Virus record (IMG/VR): IMGVR_UViG_3300020048_000023
Location: 32,001-96,000 of that record
Length of the DNA stretch: 64,000 bases
Direction: 5' to 3' (one strand)
From: a virus
Part shown: piece by piece, positions 4,768 through 16,800 of the stretch
Layout: the number at the start of each line of letters is the position of its first letter
Position numbering within the stretch: position 1 is the stretch's first letter
Translations under genes and position numbers: made by a program
The notes under the pieces: model-generated
Told to the model about the DNA's origin: nothing
The model's input: only the letters and a program-made list of their open reading frames with translations
Database searches by the model: none

Positions 4768-6025
4768 ACTGTGCGTAACCCCATTCTGTAAGGAAATAAC
4801 AACATAATCGGTACATTTCTCTTAAACAATTGTACTGTGCGTAACCCCATTCTGTAAGGAAATAACAACTAACCATCGGGTTCTCCTTACCGTTCCCAAC
4901 TGTGCGTAACCCCATTCTGTAAGGAAATAGTAATACATATGCGGTTGAGTTTGCATTAGTTTTTATTGCGCATAAACCCATTCTGTAAGGAAATAATAAT
5001 CACTGACCAATTACCAGATCAGTCCAGTTAGAGTAACCCCATTCTGTAAGGAAATAACAACGAGTGATTTAAGGTGCCCGCCTCGAATACGACTGTGTGT
5101 AACCTCATTCTGTAAGGAAATAATAATTATGATAATTGAGCAGAGCCAGAGTCTTATACTGTGTGTAATCCCGTTCTGTAAGGAAATAATAAGTAGTAAA
5201 ATAAATGGCGCAATACCTTAAAAACTGCGCGTAACCCCATTCTGTAAGGAAATAATAATACACAAACGAAGGAGTAACCCATAACGTCAACTGTGTGTAA
5301 CCCTATTCTGTAAGGAAATAACAACATCGAAAAGATCAGGCAAATAGAAGCTTCAATTGTGCATAACCCAATTCTGTAAGGAAATAAAAACTTTTCGAAA
5401 GGGTTAAAGGTGTTGAACTATATGTAACCCTATTCTGTAAGGAAATAACAACTACCGACACCCTCGAACAAAGCTATTACCTACTGTGTGTAACCCTATT
5501 CTGTAAGGAAATAACAACTAATCGAAGTTGAACACATAAGCTCTAAAAACTGTGCATAACCCTATTCTGTAAGGAAATAACAACGACGGAATAATAAACC
5601 TCTGGTTGGAAAAACTGTGTGTAGCCCCATTCTGTAAGGAAATAATAATACATCGCAGGTAATCGCATTGCCAACTGTACGTAACCCTATTCTGTAAGGA
5701 AATAAAAATAGTTGTATTTGCACAGCGCCACAACCAGCAATGTGTGTAGCCCCATTCTGTAAGGAAATAACAATCAGAAACTCATTATGCTATGCTTAGC
5801 TAATATAACCTCATTCTGTAAGGAAATAAAAATAAGGAGCAATTCAAGAAGGTTGACTTAGATACGGTGCGTAACCACATTCTGTAAGGAAATAATAATA
5901 TGTACACCAGTGCAGTATCATCAGTGCACTGCGCATAACCCCATTCTGTAAGGAAATAATAATAATCAACACTTTAACCGAAAGATAAAACCATACATAA
6001 CCCTATTCTGTAAGGAAATTAAAAA
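4768..6025 (+). CRISPR. CRISPR array: 20 repeats of 36 nt (consensus ACTGTGYGTAACCCYATTCTGTAAGGAAATAAYAAY) and 19 spacers of 23-30 nt
   Basis: Repeats start at 4768, 4834, 4899, 4965, 5026, 5092, 5158, 5224, 5290, 5356, 5417, 5483, 5549, 5614, 5674, 5739, 5798, 5864, 5928 and 5990. Invariant core TTCTGTAAGGAAAT; unique spacers. Orientation is inferred from the cas genes and boxA. Confidence 0.97.
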
Positions 6026-10762: not shown

Positions 10763-11137
10763 ATGTCAGAATTACACAAAAAATGGGTTGACGCGCTGGA
10801 CGTAGCGACGTCAAGGCGGTGTTCCAATCATATGGAGTTATCACCGAGAATAGCTAACGCTATGATTGGGGCTTCGGAGTTTCAAAACCGACTACTGAAA
10901 AAGTTGCAAGAAAAAATCGACTTATATCCGCAGTCAGTTTTCGAAGAAAATTCTCCTATTATATCTGCCGACGGCTACAGGGAGATAATAAAAATGGTAC
11001 AAAACTTGGAGCCGCACGTACCAGTTATGGCGCATTCGACTACAATACGTAATGGGTGCCCAAATTGTGGCGGTGATGTTTTTGACGGAACTGGTACTGG
11101 CTGGCGCATATGCCATAAATGCGGATTAATGTTTTAA
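10763..11137 (+). CDS. Hypothetical protein with a C-terminal Zn ribbon
   Basis: CPNCGG..CHKCG. Confidence 0.65.
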   Translation: MSELHKKWVDALDVATSRRCSNHMELSPRIANAMIGASEFQNRLLKKLQEKIDLYPQSVFEENSPIISADGYREIIKMVQNLEPHVPVMAHSTTIRNGCPNCGGDVFDGTGTGWRICHKCGLMF

Positions 11138-11205
11138 GTATTTATTTTTTGTGGGGTGATGTTTATATTTATAGGAAACCAATAAATATTTAAAACCTTA
11201 CAACA

Positions 11206-11283
11206 ATGAATACTTGGGTAACCGTCCGTTTTATGTTGCGCCGTATCGCGCATTGCTCTTCTTGCACACAAGGGGGCTGTTAA
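11206..11283 (+). CDS. 25-aa Cys-containing small peptide MNTWVTVRFMLRRIAHCSSCTQGGC
   Basis: ATG after an A/C-rich initiation region and a TATTTAT motif (11166); followed by three hairpins. Confidence 0.5.
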   Translation: MNTWVTVRFMLRRIAHCSSCTQGGC

Positions 11284-11311
11284 CTCAGGCGGGTAACGCC
11301 CGCTTTCAATG

Positions 11312-11379
11312 TTCTGTAACTTCGGGATAAAGAATCAATTATTAGGGCTGCGTAACTTCGGGATAAGTAAGCCCTTTTT
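11312..11379 (+). ncRNA. Two tandem hairpins carrying GTAACTTCGGGATAA (23S rRNA helix-62-like); the second ends in a U run
   Basis: 15-nt direct repeat at 11316-11330 and 11352-11366, closed by different stems (TTCT/AGAA and AGGGCT/AGCCCT). Confidence 0.6.
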
Positions 11380-11401
11380 ATTTATACTAATATTTATTAA
11401 T

Positions 11402-12820
11402 ATGGCAAATAGATATGTAATGTATAATAGTACACAGAAGGTCGTACTTAAAAAAGATGTTGAATCGGGGAATATACGTTTAGTACATTTGAATGATGTA
11501 GCCAGTCCGTTTGTACTTCCATTCGAAAATTATTTAAGAATGGCTGTGGTTCGTAACACTCAGTTAGATAATTATAACGTTGCTGGGGAGAATCGTTTCA
11601 CCATTGCATCAATAGACACCACTAATAGAAGGATTGTTCTTAATCAAGCCATTCCAGAAGTGGTAAAAACTGGCGTTGCGGTATATGGAAGCGGTTATAA
11701 ATGGGGATTATGCAAAGATTATGCAAATGCAAAACTTGTTGAGTATTTATCTGGTACAACTTTAACATATTCGGCTACTAAAACTGTTGGTACCTTGGCA
11801 GCTGGAAACACAGTAACATTTTTTAACCCGTTTATTAATTATGCATTTACACAACTTACAGGCATTGCGGCTTTAGGGTCAGCTGGTACTTGGAATTCAC
11901 TTGGTATGCAAACAAATGGTATGTGGCGCGGGGTCGACGGTGTTTATAGAATGATTGTTGGCGGAACCAATACAAATGGAAACCCTATTAGATTAGGCTT
12001 GATGACAAGCAACGACTTAAATACGTGGTCATATGCTAATGGGGGTAATTATATGTATACAGGTGGTGAGGGGGTATTTAATATACCTGGGGTTTCTATA
12101 GCTAATTCCGTTGTTTACCCTATGTCTAATCCTATTAAACTTGCAGATAATTCTTACCTTTCATTTTTTACGACGGTTCCATCAACTGGTCTGGCGGCTA
12201 TAGCGCCAGTATATTTTGATGATAACTTCATAGTTACTTCCGTTGGGGCTAATTTAATTATTCCTGATTATCCCATAGACTACGTTACGATATCTGGCGG
12301 TGCCGTTATGCTTAACGGTGTTTGTCATCTTTATTTTTGCGATAGGTTAAACTCTACTCCATCAACGTGGAAGCTTATTGAGGCAATTATTCCAGATTTA
12401 AGTACAATGGAAGTTACCGATTCTAATATAGTTTTATCAAATAATACCGCGGATGTTTGGCATAATCTTCATACAGACGCTATTGTACCGTTTTTATGGA
12501 ATAACACAATATATTTATGGGCATTTGGAACAGGTATAAACACTACTAATAGTATTTACCAAGGGAATAGGGAGTTAGGTCTTATAAAACGTAATCAAGA
12601 CGGTAGTTTTACCATTGACCCAAGATCGCCATTATACTTAAATCCTATTTTAGGAAACTATTTATGGGACTCTGCAATGTCTATTGCAGCTGACCATACA
12701 GGCGGTGGTTGTTCCATGTGGGCTGACGGTCAAGATATGCATATGTTTTCTACTATGAATGCTTCGTCAAACACATATAAGATTTTTCACACAAAAATAT
12801 TATTAAAAGACCAAACATAA
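11402..12820 (+). CDS. Putative virion-associated protein with a beta-propeller / glycosidase-like C-terminus (start re-called)
   Basis: G/T/S/N-rich beta composition; Asp-box-like TSNDLNTW; TATTTAT upstream. Confidence 0.55.
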   Translation: MANRYVMYNSTQKVVLKKDVESGNIRLVHLNDVASPFVLPFENYLRMAVVRNTQLDNYNVAGENRFTIASIDTTNRRIVLNQAIPEVVKTGVAVYGSGYKWGLCKDYANAKLVEYLSGTTLTYSATKTVGTLAAGNTVTFFNPFINYAFTQLTGIAALGSAGTWNSLGMQTNGMWRGVDGVYRMIVGGTNTNGNPIRLGLMTSNDLNTWSYANGGNYMYTGGEGVFNIPGVSIANSVVYPMSNPIKLADNSYLSFFTTVPSTGLAAIAPVYFDDNFIVTSVGANLIIPDYPIDYVTISGGAVMLNGVCHLYFCDRLNSTPSTWKLIEAIIPDLSTMEVTDSNIVLSNNTADVWHNLHTDAIVPFLWNNTIYLWAFGTGINTTNSIYQGNRELGLIKRNQDGSFTIDPRSPLYLNPILGNYLWDSAMSIAADHTGGGCSMWADGQDMHMFSTMNASSNTYKIFHTKILLKDQT

Positions 12821-13800: not shown

Positions 13801-16800
13801 TTACGTCCTACGAATCTTCCCGTCTTGGCAATTGTATAAATCGTAGGTAATACCCTTCTTACGCAGGGCGTTTCGGACGTCCGTAATATTCTTTTCCTGA
13901 TCATCGTAGAAAGCCACGTAGCGTATGCTCGGGTTTTCTTTTAGTATCTGTAGTATGCGTTCGCCTTTGTTCTGCATCGCATAGGACGCCATATTCAGGG
14001 CGTCAGGGTTTATCCTGTTTAATCTGAGTACCCGTTTAACTTGTCGTTCCAGCGTATCCAGCCTGTTAGTCATAACCACAACCATTGTATCGGATCGGCG
14101 CTGTTCGTCGCGCATTTGGTTGAATACTGGGGCTATAGCTGTAATTTCAAAGACGTTGGTATCTAAGCTTTCAGGCACGCTCCACCAAGCTTTTTCGCTC
14201 GGGAAATCGCCACCTGTTTTTTGTTTGTATTCTTCCCTGCCGAACTCGGGCATAGGGCTATTGATAAGCGTGCTATCCATATCAAACAATACCAATCTCT
14301 TTAGCTGGCTTCTCTGTGCTTCCATAATTGCTTCTTGTAGTTGTTGTTTTGTAAACTTTGTTTTTTTCTCTTCCGCCTGTAGTTTAAACATTTGCTTTAT
14401 CTGGGCAATTTGCTTGGGATAGAAATATTGCTGCAAGGCGTATTCATCATTATTTTTTACAATATATTCGATGAATTGATCAACGCTCCATTGGCGTTTT
14501 TCGAGCTCTGATTTAAGACGATCCATATTCAGATCGTCATTTGGTTGGAATAACTTGTTGATCTTATCGTAATATTTATCACCCTTACGCACCAAATCTT
14601 TGGTATATTTTTGTAAGAAATCCTTACGGCTCATTCTAACCCATTGACCGCCCCATCTATCGTTTAGAAGTAGTGCTTCATTAACCCAAACGGCGCGTAT
14701 CATATTGGGGTTTAAGTTGCCTATGAATAACGCCTGCTTTTCAGCATTTTGGAATAATGTTTGACCAAGTTCTGGTCTTTGGCTTTGTGATATGGCTGGG
14801 TATGGACTTGCCTGATACCTACCCCTGTTTTGTATGCGTTGTGCTTCGCGTTCTTCATCATTTGAAAAACCACTGGTGTAGTCACCCTGTACAAAATAAG
14901 AGCCACCGCCAGCCCATACTGGTGCTTCAAGGTTTGAAACCTTTGTGGCGAATTCTATGATAATACCTGAGCCAGCAAATTCCTTTTTAACTATGTTAAA
15001 ATCAATACTAACGAATAATCCTTTTGGGTTATTAACATTTTCATAACTATAAATTCTACTAACATTTTCCTGACCAGACAGCCCAAACGTTATCGCTAAC
15101 TTGGCGTCAGTTGTGCTATGCCTGCTAAATCCGTGATATACTATCAGAGTTTCATCGTCGTTTATTGGCTCCATTGATTTAACATCGTAGTTTTTGTAGT
15201 TTTCGTGGCGAACTTCTAATATGGTCTTGGTTATATTTTCTACAATATTTTTGGTATAATTCTTTTTAGATTCATTCCAGTATTCGCTATCGTCATATTG
15301 TTCTGGTTTTTCACCGTACAAGAAAAATCGCTTAATAGCTTCGATTATCATATCTGTTGGTGTATCTTCCTCAAATCTAAGGTAAGTTTGTTCATCACCA
15401 TAAACGTCAATTAGGCTTTCACCTCGTTTTTGCTGAAAAAATCTACGTAGTTGGGTAAATTGGTCTTGCGTCGGCATTGAACGCATTTCTATATTACCAG
15501 ATTCTGGTATAACACGAATGAAGCCCATATCGAGAGCGATATATAACCATTTTGAGAACGAGTTCTCATAAGCCTTTCCGTTATATAACCCCCAATCTAT
15601 TGGTAAATTCTCAATAGTACCCATAATATTCCTATGGTCATTTCCACCAGCGCCGCGTATATTAATGCAATACCCACTTGGTGAAATATACCCACATTGG
15701 GTAACATTTGTTTCGCCGTATTCGGCTAATATAGCTTTCTCTACCTTGAGTATGTCGTAGTCCTTGAACTGCTGCTGTGGCGCTTCGTGGAGTTTTTGCT
15801 CGAATATCTCAGTGCGGGTAAAGTTATTAACGTGATCTTCAAACTCAAATGTTTTACGGTTTATTTCGTTTATGATCGCATCAATGTCTGCTTGCTGGTA
15901 GGTAGACGTTTCGGGAACCATTAGTTCCTTATGGTACGAATACTTATCGTTCAGCATATTGAACGCCGTCTGCATAACAAACCGTTCCATATCAGAGCCA
16001 AACGTGTCGGGTATATCAAAGAAAATCTGGTTTTTCAGTGTGAAGTTATACCATTTCTTTTCGTTGAAGTTTCGGTAGCTCATTTTGAACTCAGACATAA
16101 TAGCCACGTTAGTTAGGGTCACCTGCTGGTTATGCCAATATACATCGGCTTTACCAATTCTCTTACTTAGCTGGAAGTGGTCGTAGTTCTCTTCAGGGAA
16201 TTCGTTATACTTAGCCAGCGACGGTACACGCTGTTTAACCTGTTGTACCAGAGCTTCGAAATTACCATCCAGATTACCCTCGGCTTCATTTAACGACTCA
16301 CGGTTTTTGTAAACTGGGTCAGGAATCCTTTGGTGTATAAATTCGATACTTGGATTCTTTTGTCTGGCTAATGTTAAACCGTTTTTTATTTTAGCAAGCA
16401 TTTCACGCCTACCGTTAATATCAGTATCAAAATTATTGGGGTATAATTCACCTAACTTAAATGCGTCAGTATTGCCAGCCCTTTGAACTGGAATCAACAC
16501 ATCGGGGCTTTTATATATTAGACCGTAATCTGTTGGAAAACGCATATTCAATTTATTGTTCACCCATTGAATTATTTCATTATGAAAATATCCAGTGCCA
16601 TTTATAACATATAAATCACCAGTCTTAGCATCAATAAAACCCCTAATATTTTGTATTAAATTTCTGATTGACTTTGGGTTTTTAAATGCTTCTATAGTTT
16701 CAATATCGTCGCCGTTATTGATATAATTAACTACACCCAAAAAATCTTCACGCAATATTTTAGCCGTAAGCTCTTGTATTTTCTGTGGAGTATTAGTTAT

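What the first reader, a model, noticed from the sequence alone, without database searches (positions are those of the whole stretch)
11166..11379. Small unit: a 25-aa Cys-rich peptide followed by tandem mimics of a 23S rRNA helix
SEEN: a TATTTAT motif, then the ORF MNTWVTVRFMLRRIAHCSSCTQGGC, a GCGGG/CCCGC hairpin, and two hairpins with an identical GTAACTTCGGGATAA top but different closing stems. The last ends in a U tract. KNOWN: CGTAACTTCGGGA(G/T)AAG is a highly conserved large-subunit rRNA segment in domain IV (about helix 62 by my recollection), at the subunit interface. INFERENCE: the same loop on two different stems suggests selected rRNA mimicry. It may be a decoy for an rRNA-targeting toxin, modifier or ribosomal protein, possibly combined with an arrest peptide or RiPP-like precursor.
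Basis: partly seen in the sequence, partly recalled or inferred. Interest (0 to 1): 0.75.

Follow-up and report, generated by a model that had tools for sequence, protein, structure and literature searches.

The report
Phage micro-gene with rRNA-like terminator hairpins
A large uncultured phage carries a self-contained mini-gene for a conserved 25-residue cysteine-rich peptide, and in this lineage its end is marked by two hairpins that copy the tip of ribosomal RNA helix 62; relatives keep the peptide without these hairpins, so the copy looks like a reused RNA building block, not a proven ribosome decoy.

Summary
Window 11166-11379 holds a TATTTAT motif, a 25-codon ORF, a GC hairpin and two hairpins with identical 15-nt tops. 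These tops match the cap of 23S rRNA helix 62 (E. coli 1687-1701, 14/15) and equal a natural U1699 variant.

Five further phage lineages from metagenomes change the reading.
- The ORF is a real gene. 15 of 23 variable columns are third codon positions, frame and stop are kept, and the His/Cys tail is invariant. It also has the A-3/-6/-12/-13 start context of Bacteroidota, the likely host group.
- The ORF and the first hairpin occur in all six lineages.
- The helix-62-like hairpins do not: two copies in three lineages, one in one, none in two. In one of those two an ordinary terminator takes their place.
- Downstream genes differ and carry their own promoter motif.
- The same 15-mer caps stems of differing sequence in many unrelated viral contigs.

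Best reading: an autonomous micro-gene cassette whose terminator region here is built from an rRNA-type hairpin module. The peptide's function is unknown; I guess a metal-binding, trans-acting microprotein. Selected rRNA mimicry is not excluded but has no support. Earlier unchecked notes of this scan report other rRNA look-alike RNAs in phages.

The parts
11148..11172 (+). Promoter-like element: TTTG (11148-11151), then TATTTAT (11166-11172)
   Evidence: TATTTAT lies within 45 nt upstream of 15 of 153 long ORFs in this genome, against 1.2% expected. Many copies are preceded by TTTG. It is kept in all relatives. In L086 the same promoter and leader drive a different ORF.
11178..11205 (+). Short A/U-rich 5' leader. 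The transcription start is inferred, not mapped.
   Evidence: It has A at -3, -6, -12 and -13 before the ATG. These positions are enriched genome-wide here and stimulate initiation in Flavobacterium (PMC6847099). It is predicted to be unpaired.
11206..11283 (+). 25-codon ORF plus stop, encoding a basic peptide with an invariant H-C-x2-C-x4-C C-terminus
   Evidence: Frame, length and stop are kept in six lineages. Against L084 there are 10 synonymous and 4 non-synonymous codon changes. 15 of 23 variable columns are third positions, P=0.0017. No family match in Pfam, NCBIfam, PHROGs, PADLOC or PDB.
11287..11305 (+). HP1: GC-rich hairpin starting 4 nt after the stop codon
   Evidence: Predicted at -11.8 kcal/mol, z=-3.9. 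The stem is invariant in all six lineages and only the loop varies.
11311..11335 (+). HP2: 5-bp stem carrying the 15-nt helix-62-type cap (11316-11330)
   Evidence: Stem changes between lineages keep pairing (G.U to G-C, U-A to U.G). HP2 is absent in L085, L084 and L087. Its cap is altered at two positions in L076.
11344..11379 (+). HP3: 8-bp stem with one bulge carrying the second helix-62-type cap (11352-11366), then a T tract. Intrinsic-terminator-like.
   Evidence: Sequence read; folds. A U-to-C change converts G.U to G-C in relatives. It is present in four of six lineages. In L084 an unrelated GC hairpin plus T9 stands in its place.
11379..11404 (+). Own promoter-like motifs (TATTTAT at 11379 and 11391) and start codon (11402) of the next gene
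   Evidence: The equivalent motif precedes the next gene in L082, L084 and L085.

Best explanation
The stretch is a self-contained micro-gene cassette of a jumbo phage that probably infects a Bacteroidota host.

A phage promoter motif (TTTG...TATTTAT) would start a transcript of about 200 nt. After a short, unpaired, A-rich leader the ribosome would translate a 25-codon ORF. Its product is a basic peptide with an invariant H-C-x2-C-x4-C C-terminal end. I infer that it acts in trans as a small metal-binding (zinc-knuckle-like) microprotein on a host or phage target that is still unknown.

A conserved GC hairpin (HP1) follows 4 nt after the stop codon. The transcript should end at an intrinsic terminator.

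In this lineage the terminator region consists of two hairpins (HP2, HP3). Their tops are the helix-62 module of 23S rRNA: a UAA/GAN-type internal loop closed by a C(UUCG)G tetraloop. Their likely job is to give a very stable, fast-folding 3' end and terminator. The module was either captured from rRNA or reached by convergence, and it then appeared a second time within the spacer. It is not needed for the cassette's core function.

Shown: the anatomy, coding selection on the ORF, conservation of HP1, and the optional nature of HP2 and HP3.
Inferred: the transcript ends, that the ORF is translated, metal binding, trans action, and the terminator and stabiliser role.
For: 1. Coding.
- The frame, the 25-codon length and the stop are kept in six lineages.
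- Against L084 there are 10 silent and 4 replacement codon changes. Replacements fall at residues 2, 4, 6 and 21.
- 15 of 23 variable columns are third positions (P=0.0017). For codons 7-26 the count is 12 of 16 (P=0.0008).

2. Start context.
- The phage's genes avoid Shine-Dalgarno motifs (3.9% against 8.4% background).
- They are A-rich at -13 (0.71), -12 (0.74), -6 (0.65) and -3 (0.50). The micro-ORF has A at all four.
- These positions are positive determinants in Flavobacterium johnsoniae (PMC6847099).

3. Own promoter. The TATTTAT motif is about 8-fold enriched upstream of long ORFs. In L086 the same promoter and leader drive a different gene, so the module is portable.

4. Independent unit.
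- The next gene has its own TATTTAT motif in every lineage that has a same-strand downstream gene.
- Downstream genes differ and share only about 40 N-terminal residues.
- In L087 the cassette follows a NUDIX gene directly and faces a convergent TnpB-like gene.

5. The hairpins are optional.
- HP1 is present in all six lineages.
- HP2 and HP3 are present in three lineages, HP3 alone in L085, and neither in L084 or L087.
- L084 has an unrelated GC hairpin plus T9 at the same place.

6. The cap is a reusable module.
- Of 72 viral contigs with the exact 15-mer, 38 have at least 4 flanking complementary pairs. About 2% is expected by chance.
- At least five different stem sequences occur, in RNA contexts unrelated to this cassette.
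- One of them (L019) is a long hairpin shortly after a stop codon in another jumbo-phage contig.

7. The C(UUCG)G tetraloop is known from phage T4 mRNA as an exceptionally stable, autonomous element (PMC4371310).
Against: - Transcript ends, termination and translation are therefore all inferred.
- The peptide matches no known family or solved structure. Metal binding and trans action are guesses from an H/C pattern.
- Three lineages share the cassette at 100% nucleotide identity while their flanking proteins are 55-78% identical. This means either an RNA-level constraint that my model does not explain, or recent recombination.
- The likeness to rRNA goes beyond what a stable cap requires. The HP3 form found in relatives matches 28 of 29 nt of some alphaproteobacterial 23S rRNAs.
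- Two identical caps on unrelated stems are not what a simple tandem duplication leaves behind.
- Between the window and L075 the whole hairpin region is unchanged, while the flanks differ by 5%.
- Only six lineages are available, and they were found through neighbouring proteins or the peptide itself.
Confidence: 0.55

Rival explanations
1. Functional rRNA mimicry. Candidates are 16S helix 44 at bridges B5/B6, an assembly or modification factor, or an rRNA-directed toxin. The co-encoded basic peptide might take part.
For: - The cap is identical to a natural helix-62 variant. HP3 also shares the C-G closing pair and further stem bases with real 23S rRNAs.
- Two identical caps sit on different stems.
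- The HP3 cap is invariant in all four lineages that have it, while its stem shows a pair-preserving change.
- The hairpin region is unchanged between the window and L075, against 5% divergence in the flanks.
- Helix 62 is an interface element (PMC3082907).
- Earlier unchecked notes of this scan describe phage RNAs copying other 23S sites.
Against: - The caps are absent in two lineages and single in one, and all of these keep the peptide and HP1.
- The HP2 cap carries two substitutions in L076.
- No ligand specific for the helix-62 cap other than the 30S subunit is known to me.
- PMC4371310 states that no protein binds the CUUCGG tetraloop.
- The same cap occurs in unrelated viral RNAs, where a structural role is the simpler reading.
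- The host and its own helix-62 sequence are unknown.
Confidence: 0.15
2. Cis-acting leader peptide. Translation or stalling of the 25-codon ORF at its stop codon melts HP1, which starts 4 nt downstream. This would change folding of the terminator hairpins and so tune read-through into the variable tail-fibre-like gene, as in tnaC-type or attenuator systems.
For: - The C-terminal 19 residues are the conserved part.
- HP1 starts 4 nt after the stop, within reach of a terminating ribosome, and is invariant.
- Terminator-like hairpins and then a gene follow on the same strand.
- The 3' arm of HP1 contains CCCG, which could pair with the CGGG inside the caps (read from the sequence).
Against: - Each downstream gene has its own TTTG/TATTTAT promoter motif after the terminator.
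- Downstream genes differ between lineages. In L087 the cassette faces a convergent gene.
- No alternative antiterminator pairing is shared by lineages with and without the helix-62 caps.
- The peptide has no known arrest motif, for example no proline-rich end (my knowledge of SecM, TnaC and RAPP-type peptides).
Confidence: 0.15
3. RiPP precursor. The Cys-rich C-terminus is a core peptide modified by a phage or host enzyme, for example a radical SAM enzyme.
For: - The peptide is small, Cys-rich, and has a GG motif near its end.
- The contig encodes four radical SAM proteins.
Against: - No maturase, protease or transporter lies next to the ORF in any lineage.
- The radical SAM genes lie 38 kb or more away. 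None has a recognised SPASM or peptide-binding domain. Two sit with DUF3307 and MazG-like genes.
- There is no YcaO.
- The peptide matches no NCBIfam or Pfam precursor family.
Confidence: 0.06
4. Non-coding small RNA. The ORF is fortuitous and the whole 200 nt acts as a structured regulatory RNA.
For: - The nucleotide sequence is 100% identical in three lineages.
- A predicted long-range helix in the ORF region is mostly kept through one-sided changes.
Against: - Substitutions fall on third codon positions, and the peptide, frame and stop are preserved in the diverged lineages.
- The other two forward frames are interrupted or poorly conserved.
- No Rfam family matches, even at E up to 10.
- Only one both-sided compensatory change was found.
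Confidence: 0.05

Closest known systems
Helix 62 of bacterial 23S rRNA (E. coli nt 1682-1706), domain IV, intersubunit bridges B5/B6
   Same: - The 15-nt cap matches 14 of 15 nt in E. coli and is identical in natural U1699 variants.
- The cap sits on a Watson-Crick stem.
- HP3 has the same C-G closing pair and up to 28 of 29 nt in common with some 23S rRNAs.
   Different: - It stands in the 3' part of a short phage mRNA, in two copies, and the last copy is followed by a U tract.
- HP2 closes with U-A or U.G.
- Relatives can lack it.
- No evidence that it meets any ribosomal partner.
C(UUCG)G-capped hairpins of phage T4 mRNAs and rRNA (Tuerk et al. 1988, as reviewed in PMC4371310)
   Same: An exceptionally stable tetraloop closed by C-G, used by a phage in intergenic RNA. 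It is an autonomous folding element.
   Different: Here the tetraloop comes with the full helix-62 internal loop on both sides (nine further fixed bases), not only the six-base loop.
UAA/GAN internal-loop motif (Lee, Gutell and Russell 2006; recalled from memory, not found in the paper library)
   Same: The 5' UAA and 3' GAU flanks of the caps fit the motif. The N position varies G/U/A in natural helix 62. As I recall, the motif recurs in several classes of structured RNA.
   Different: Motif membership rests on sequence only and no 3D evidence. The L076 HP2 variant (CAA/UAU) breaks the consensus.
Phage 'morons': promoter-gene-terminator cassettes inserted between conserved genes (Hendrix and colleagues; my knowledge)
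   Same: It has its own promoter motif, a single small ORF and its own terminator. It lies between genes with independent promoters. Presence and neighbours vary between relatives, and the promoter module is exchanged (L086).
   Different: The product is only 25 residues. The phage is a large, probably lytic, Ackermannviridae-like phage by distant similarity, not a temperate lambdoid.
tnaC-type leader peptides and ribosome-arrest peptides
   Same: It is a 24-25-codon ORF with a conserved C-terminal part. RNA structure and terminator-like hairpins lie between it and the next gene.
   Different: The next gene has its own promoter and differs between lineages. No arrest motif and no shared antiterminator pairing were found.
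rRNA-mimicking leaders of ribosomal-protein operons (L1, S8, L20 and others; my knowledge)
   Same: A piece of mRNA copies an rRNA hairpin.
   Different: Those mimics bind the encoded r-protein and sit in the 5' leader. Here no r-protein is encoded, no helix-62-cap-binding protein is known, and the copies lie 3' of the ORF.
Unnamed RNA family in IMG/VR contigs ('group A', e.g. L045, L020, L013, L008, L040)
   Same: An identical 17-nt C-cap-G element sits on a short stem whose sequence differs between members (GCGC, CCGC, CAGC, GUAC, AUGC).
   Different: The surroundings are entirely different: a hairpin with a UGAAAGY loop, a long CACCACACG/CGUGUGGUG helix, and tRNA-like sequences nearby. There is no micro-ORF and no Rfam match.

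Membership tests
23S rRNA helix-62 look-alike (mimic) | Cap sequence identical to natural helix 62 | tested here: met
   14 of 15 nt match E. coli rrlH. The cap is identical to the U1699 variant in about 26 of 92 sampled genomes. A 22-mer of the HP3 form in relatives hits 109 genome stretches, and all those examined lie in 23S rRNA context.
23S rRNA helix-62 look-alike (mimic) | Cap carried on a Watson-Crick stem with a C-G closing pair | tested here: met
   HP3 has a C-G closing pair and an 8-bp stem. HP2 has a 5-bp stem but closes with U-A or U.G.
23S rRNA helix-62 look-alike (mimic) | Cap kept by selection wherever the unit occurs | tested here: not met
   There are two caps in three lineages, one in L085, and none in L084 or L087. 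The L076 HP2 cap has two changes.
23S rRNA helix-62 look-alike (mimic) | Shares a binding partner with helix 62 | not testable with these tools
   Needs RNA pull-down or 30S binding assays.
Intrinsic (Rho-independent) terminator | GC-containing stem-loop directly followed by a U tract | tested here: met
   The HP3 stem contains five G-C pairs, followed by T5 and then ATTT. The simple scan missed it because its loop limit is 8 nt.
Intrinsic (Rho-independent) terminator | Stands at the end of a transcription unit, and is replaceable by another terminator | tested here: met
   It is followed by the next gene's TATTTAT motif. L084 has an unrelated GC hairpin plus T9 at the same place.
Intrinsic (Rho-independent) terminator | Terminates transcription in vivo | not testable with these tools
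Protein-coding small ORF (microprotein) | Frame, length and stop conserved, with substitutions biased to synonymous sites | tested here: met
   (15 of 23 variable columns at third positions, P=0.0017).
Protein-coding small ORF (microprotein) | Host-type translation initiation region | tested here: met
   A at -3, -6, -12 and -13, and an unpaired leader. Basis: PMC6847099.
Protein-coding small ORF (microprotein) | Peptide detected | not testable with these tools
   Needs ribosome profiling or mass spectrometry.
Leader/arrest-peptide attenuator (tnaC, SecM type) | Downstream gene depends on read-through and is the same in relatives | tested here: not met
   Each has its own promoter motif. Downstream genes differ. 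A convergent gene follows in L087.
Leader/arrest-peptide attenuator (tnaC, SecM type) | Alternative (antiterminator) pairing conserved | tested here: inconclusive
   Only a 4-nt CCCG/CGGG possibility exists in cap-bearing lineages, and nothing equivalent in L084.
RiPP precursor | Adjacent maturase, or match to a precursor family | tested here: not met
   Neighbours are HNH, ferritin-like, NUDIX and Zn-ribbon proteins plus unknowns. NCBIfam and Pfam give no hit. No YcaO. The radical SAM genes are distant.
Type III toxin-antitoxin RNA repeats (ToxI-like) | Tandem full-length repeat units upstream of a ToxN/Abi-type nuclease | tested here: not met
   Only the 15-mer is shared, with 79% identity over 29 nt at 36-nt spacing. 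The downstream 472-aa protein has no Pfam, PHROG or PADLOC hit.
Any Rfam family | Covariance-model match | tested here: not met
   Nothing at gathering score. Only noise at E up to 10.

The most novel reading that the evidence does not exclude
The peptide and the hairpins form one system aimed at the ribosomal subunit interface. The basic Cys/His peptide would bind the helix-62 cap on 50S subunits, or the helix-62 contact site on 16S helix 44, to alter host translation. The two cap copies on its own mRNA would serve as an autoregulatory sponge or decoy. This is the logic of ribosomal-protein operons, reused by a phage. In lineages without the caps the peptide would act unbuffered, or through HP1.
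Probability: 0.07. Interest if true: 0.8.

Novelty: new member of a known kind. Interest (0 to 1): 0.4.

Why it matters
Proteins of about 25 residues fall below the usual gene-calling cut-offs. None of the assemblies examined had a gene called in this spacer.

This one is under clear coding selection in several lineages of large uncultured phages that probably infect Bacteroidota. It sits directly in front of the hypervariable tail-fibre-like genes. It is therefore a concrete, testable candidate for a new phage microprotein.

The rRNA-identical hairpins matter in two ways. First, they warn that an exact rRNA look-alike in a phage need not be a decoy, because relatives can lack it. Second, the same cap recurs on stems of differing sequence in other unnamed phage RNAs. 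That points to a portable RNA module whose role outside the ribosome has not been studied. If it did bind a ribosomal partner, it would add a subunit-interface element to the rRNA sites that phage RNAs appear to copy.

Tried and rejected
- DNA search of the region in the GenBank phage collection: no match. tblastn of the Zn-ribbon neighbour there: no match.
- Rfam at gathering score and at E up to 10: nothing.
- Exact-pattern scans of IMG/VR with two core 17- and 18-mers, and with a back-translated peptide pattern: no hit. The same back-translated pattern in metagenome contigs gave one locus, L087.
- Protein-guided locus search with the 472-aa family: nothing in IMG/VR or in metagenome contigs.
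- Peptide against Pfam, NCBIfam, PHROGs, PADLOC and PDB sequences: no hit. Structure and complex prediction were not possible because the peptide is under 30 residues.
- The idea that the first 140 nt are a riboswitch or sRNA, suggested by 100% identity with L076, was rejected once diverged lineages showed the codon pattern.
- The ToxI-like repeat idea, from the 36-nt spacing, was rejected.
- A lambda N/boxB-like reading of the peptide plus HP1 (5-bp GC stem with a 5-nt loop) was considered. It could not be tested and is kept only as a thought.
- 'Group A' viral RNAs were checked as a cobalamin riboswitch, tmRNA or tRNA. Rfam and ARAGORN do not support any of these.
- Host identification from the helix-62 variant failed. 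The best 22-29-nt matches are alphaproteobacterial, while the translation signals look Bacteroidota-like.

Full report
WHERE IT LIES

The window is part of a 160.9-kb IMG/VR viral contig. It is estimated about 67% complete and has 40% G+C. By one 746-aa protein the phage is distantly related (about 33% identity) to Ackermannviridae-like phages.

The finding occupies the 264-nt spacer 11138-11401. Upstream lies a 124-aa Zn-ribbon gene (10763-11137). Downstream lies a 472-aa gene of unknown family (11402-12820). All are on the + strand. Other neighbours are HNH and GIY-YIG endonuclease-like genes, a ferritin-like gene and a NUDIX gene.

All elements are at the stated places. The 15-mer cap occurs exactly twice in the contig, 36 nt apart.

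E. coli 23S rRNA nt 1687-1701 matches 14 of 15 and has the same architecture, a cap on a Watson-Crick stem. The one difference is a natural variant. Among 92 sampled genomes with a match, from the phylum of a Bacteroidales MAG, position N is G in most, U in about 26 and A in about 10.

A 22-mer of the HP3 form found in relatives occurs in 109 prokaryotic genome stretches. All those examined lie in 23S context. The best of them match 28 of 29 nt. Helix 62 takes part in bridges B5/B6 with 16S helix 44 (PMC3082907).

RELATIVES

Homologues of the two flanking proteins led to syntenic metagenomic contigs. A back-translated peptide pattern found one more. Together with the window they give six lineages that carry the unit:
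- the window and L075
- L076, L077 and L078
- L082 and L083
- L085
- L084
- L087

L086 keeps only the promoter and leader. L079 and L080 encode homologues of the 472-aa protein but have no such spacer upstream.

THE ORF IS A GENE

In the window, L076 and L082 the 78 nt are identical. In L084, L085 and L087 they have diverged, yet length, frame and stop are kept.
- Against L084 there are 10 synonymous and 4 non-synonymous codon changes. Replacements fall at residues 2, 4, 6 and 21.
- L084 against L085 gives 13 synonymous and 5 non-synonymous changes.
- Of 23 variable columns, 15 are third codon positions (P=0.0017). For codons 7-26 the count is 12 of 16 (P=0.0008).
- Invariant residues include His16, Cys17, Cys20, Cys25, Arg8, Arg12, Arg13 and the Gln-Gly-Gly before the last Cys.

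The phage's genes lack Shine-Dalgarno motifs and are A-rich at -13, -12, -6 and -3. This is the Bacteroidota pattern, and those adenines stimulate initiation in that group (PMC6847099). The micro-ORF has A at all four positions, and its leader is predicted to be unpaired. The peptide matches nothing in Pfam, NCBIfam, PHROGs, PADLOC or the PDB.

IT IS ITS OWN TRANSCRIPTION UNIT (INFERRED)

TATTTAT, often preceded by TTTG, lies within 45 nt upstream of 15 of 153 long ORFs, against 1.2% expected. One copy precedes the micro-ORF.

After HP3 further copies precede the next gene. The same holds in L082, L084 and L085. In L084 the assembly's called start lies inside the terminator. A start after the TATTTAT motif is more plausible.

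Downstream genes differ between lineages and share only about 40 N-terminal residues. That is the pattern of exchangeable tail-fibre-like proteins. One homologue is fused to a Gly_rich_2 domain and follows a Gp80-family gene.

In L087 the unit follows a NUDIX gene directly and faces a convergent TnpB-like gene. In L086 the same promoter and leader, up to the ATG, drive a different and longer ORF.

THE HAIRPINS

HP1 starts 4 nt after the stop. It is strong (-11.8 kcal/mol, z=-3.9). Its stem is invariant in all six lineages while its loop varies.

HP2 and HP3 behave differently.
- Both are present in three lineages.
- L085 has HP3 only.
- L084 has an unrelated GC hairpin with T9 instead.
- L087 has neither.

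Stem changes in HP2 and HP3 preserve pairing (G.U to G-C, U-A to U.G). This supports the drawn hairpins over the alternative fold that RNAfold prefers for HP2. The HP3 cap is invariant where HP3 is present. The HP2 cap has two changes in L076.

Between the window and its 95%-identical relative L075 there is no change in 11195-11401. So the hairpin region is not drifting freely in this lineage.

THE CAP IS A PORTABLE MODULE

The exact 15-mer occurs once each in 72 IMG/VR contigs, about the number expected by chance. Yet 38 of them have at least four flanking complementary pairs, where about 2% is expected. The 34 without a stem lie mostly inside long ORFs.

As a control, the G variant occurs in 65 contigs and only 5 have such stems. 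Of those five, one or two are rRNA and two belong to the same RNA family.

The largest stem-bearing set, 'group A', has about 20 diverse contigs. It shows the cap on stems of at least five different sequences, next to a hairpin with a UGAAAGY loop and a long helix. It has no Rfam, tRNA or tmRNA assignment. Other cases include a long capped hairpin shortly after a stop codon in a 255-kb contig (L019).

The C(UUCG)G tetraloop is a classic ultra-stable element, first noticed in T4 mRNA (PMC4371310). The flanking UAA/GAU fits the UAA/GAN internal-loop motif as I recall it (Lee et al. 2006). That paper was not in the library.

WEIGHING THE READINGS

The data fit a moron-like cassette: promoter, leader, 25-codon gene, HP1 and terminator. 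In this branch the terminator region uses the helix-62 module twice.

- Mimicry is not excluded. The identity with rRNA is longer than stability alone needs, and the two caps sit on unrelated stems. However, relatives can lack the caps, and this speaks against a necessary decoy function.
- A cis-acting leader peptide is weakened by the independent promoters and by the changing downstream genes.
- A RiPP precursor lacks any nearby enzyme.
- A pure sRNA is contradicted by the codon pattern.

UNEXPLAINED

- Three lineages share the cassette at 100% nucleotide identity although their neighbouring proteins are 55-78% identical.
- GTAAC occurs four times in 150 nt.
- The best rRNA matches to HP3 are alphaproteobacterial, while the translation signals look Bacteroidota-like.

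LIMITS

- There are no expression data.
- Only six lineages are available, and they were found through neighbours or through the peptide.
- The host is unknown.
- The peptide's function is a guess from its His/Cys pattern.

Earlier notes of this scan (unchecked) report phage RNAs that copy the 23S GTPase centre and helix 69. They also report a widespread tRNA-shaped phage RNA resembling 'group A'. I used them as leads only.

Noticed in passing
L045, L020, L013, L008, L040, L028, L012, L063, L017 and others (IMG/VR loci): An unnamed structured-RNA family ('group A'). A short stem of varying sequence carries the same 17-nt C-cap-G element. It is followed by a hairpin with a UGAAAGY loop and a long CACCACACG/CGUGUGGUG helix, often near tRNA-like sequences. 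There is no Rfam hit and ARAGORN calls no tmRNA. The U variant of the cap dominates (38 of 72 hits on stems), against 5 of 65 for the G variant.
   Followed up: partly
L086:728-958: The same promoter and 5' leader as the micro-gene, identical up to the ATG, drive a different and longer ORF in place of the 25-codon ORF. This suggests cassette exchange by recombination at the conserved promoter/leader.
   Followed up: partly
window 11402-12820; L082:3651-4769 and 5266-5730: The 472-aa downstream protein is hypervariable (about 55% identity where the flanks are 80-93% at DNA level). It shares only an N-terminal module of about 40 residues with otherwise unrelated proteins in L082. One homologue (P0004) is fused to a Gly_rich_2 domain after a Gp80-family gene. 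It is likely an exchangeable tail-fibre or receptor-binding protein.
   Followed up: partly
whole contig: Genes lack Shine-Dalgarno motifs and show A enrichment at -13, -12, -6 and -3. A TTTG...TATTTAT motif is enriched upstream of genes. Both point to a Bacteroidota-type host.
   Followed up: partly
L087:1-700: A TnpB-like (IS200/IS605-type) gene lies convergent to the micro-gene, just after HP1, where other lineages have the helix-62-like hairpins. An insertion may have removed them.
   Followed up: no
G000:C1:3666-6631 (L197:1167-4131), outside the window: A cluster of radical SAM, DUF3307, radical SAM and MazG-like genes. Two further radical SAM genes lie at G000:C1:95860-96630 and 108049-109023. 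This may be nucleotide or nucleic-acid modification.
   Followed up: partly
window 11131-11146 and 11181-11196: A 16-nt inverted repeat (94% complementary) joins the end of the upstream gene to the micro-ORF leader. In read-through transcripts it could mask the micro-ORF start region. It is partly kept in L082.
   Followed up: no
window 13802-14350: The 3' end of the 2521-aa polyprotein gene (minus strand) is 94.5% identical to L076 while adjacent DNA is about 75% identical. This shows mosaic conservation in the neighbourhood.
   Followed up: no
window 11218, 11293, 11316, 11352: The pentamer GTAAC occurs four times within 150 nt (expected 0.16, P about 2e-5): in the ORF, in the HP1 loop and in both caps. 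It is not kept in L084.
   Followed up: partly
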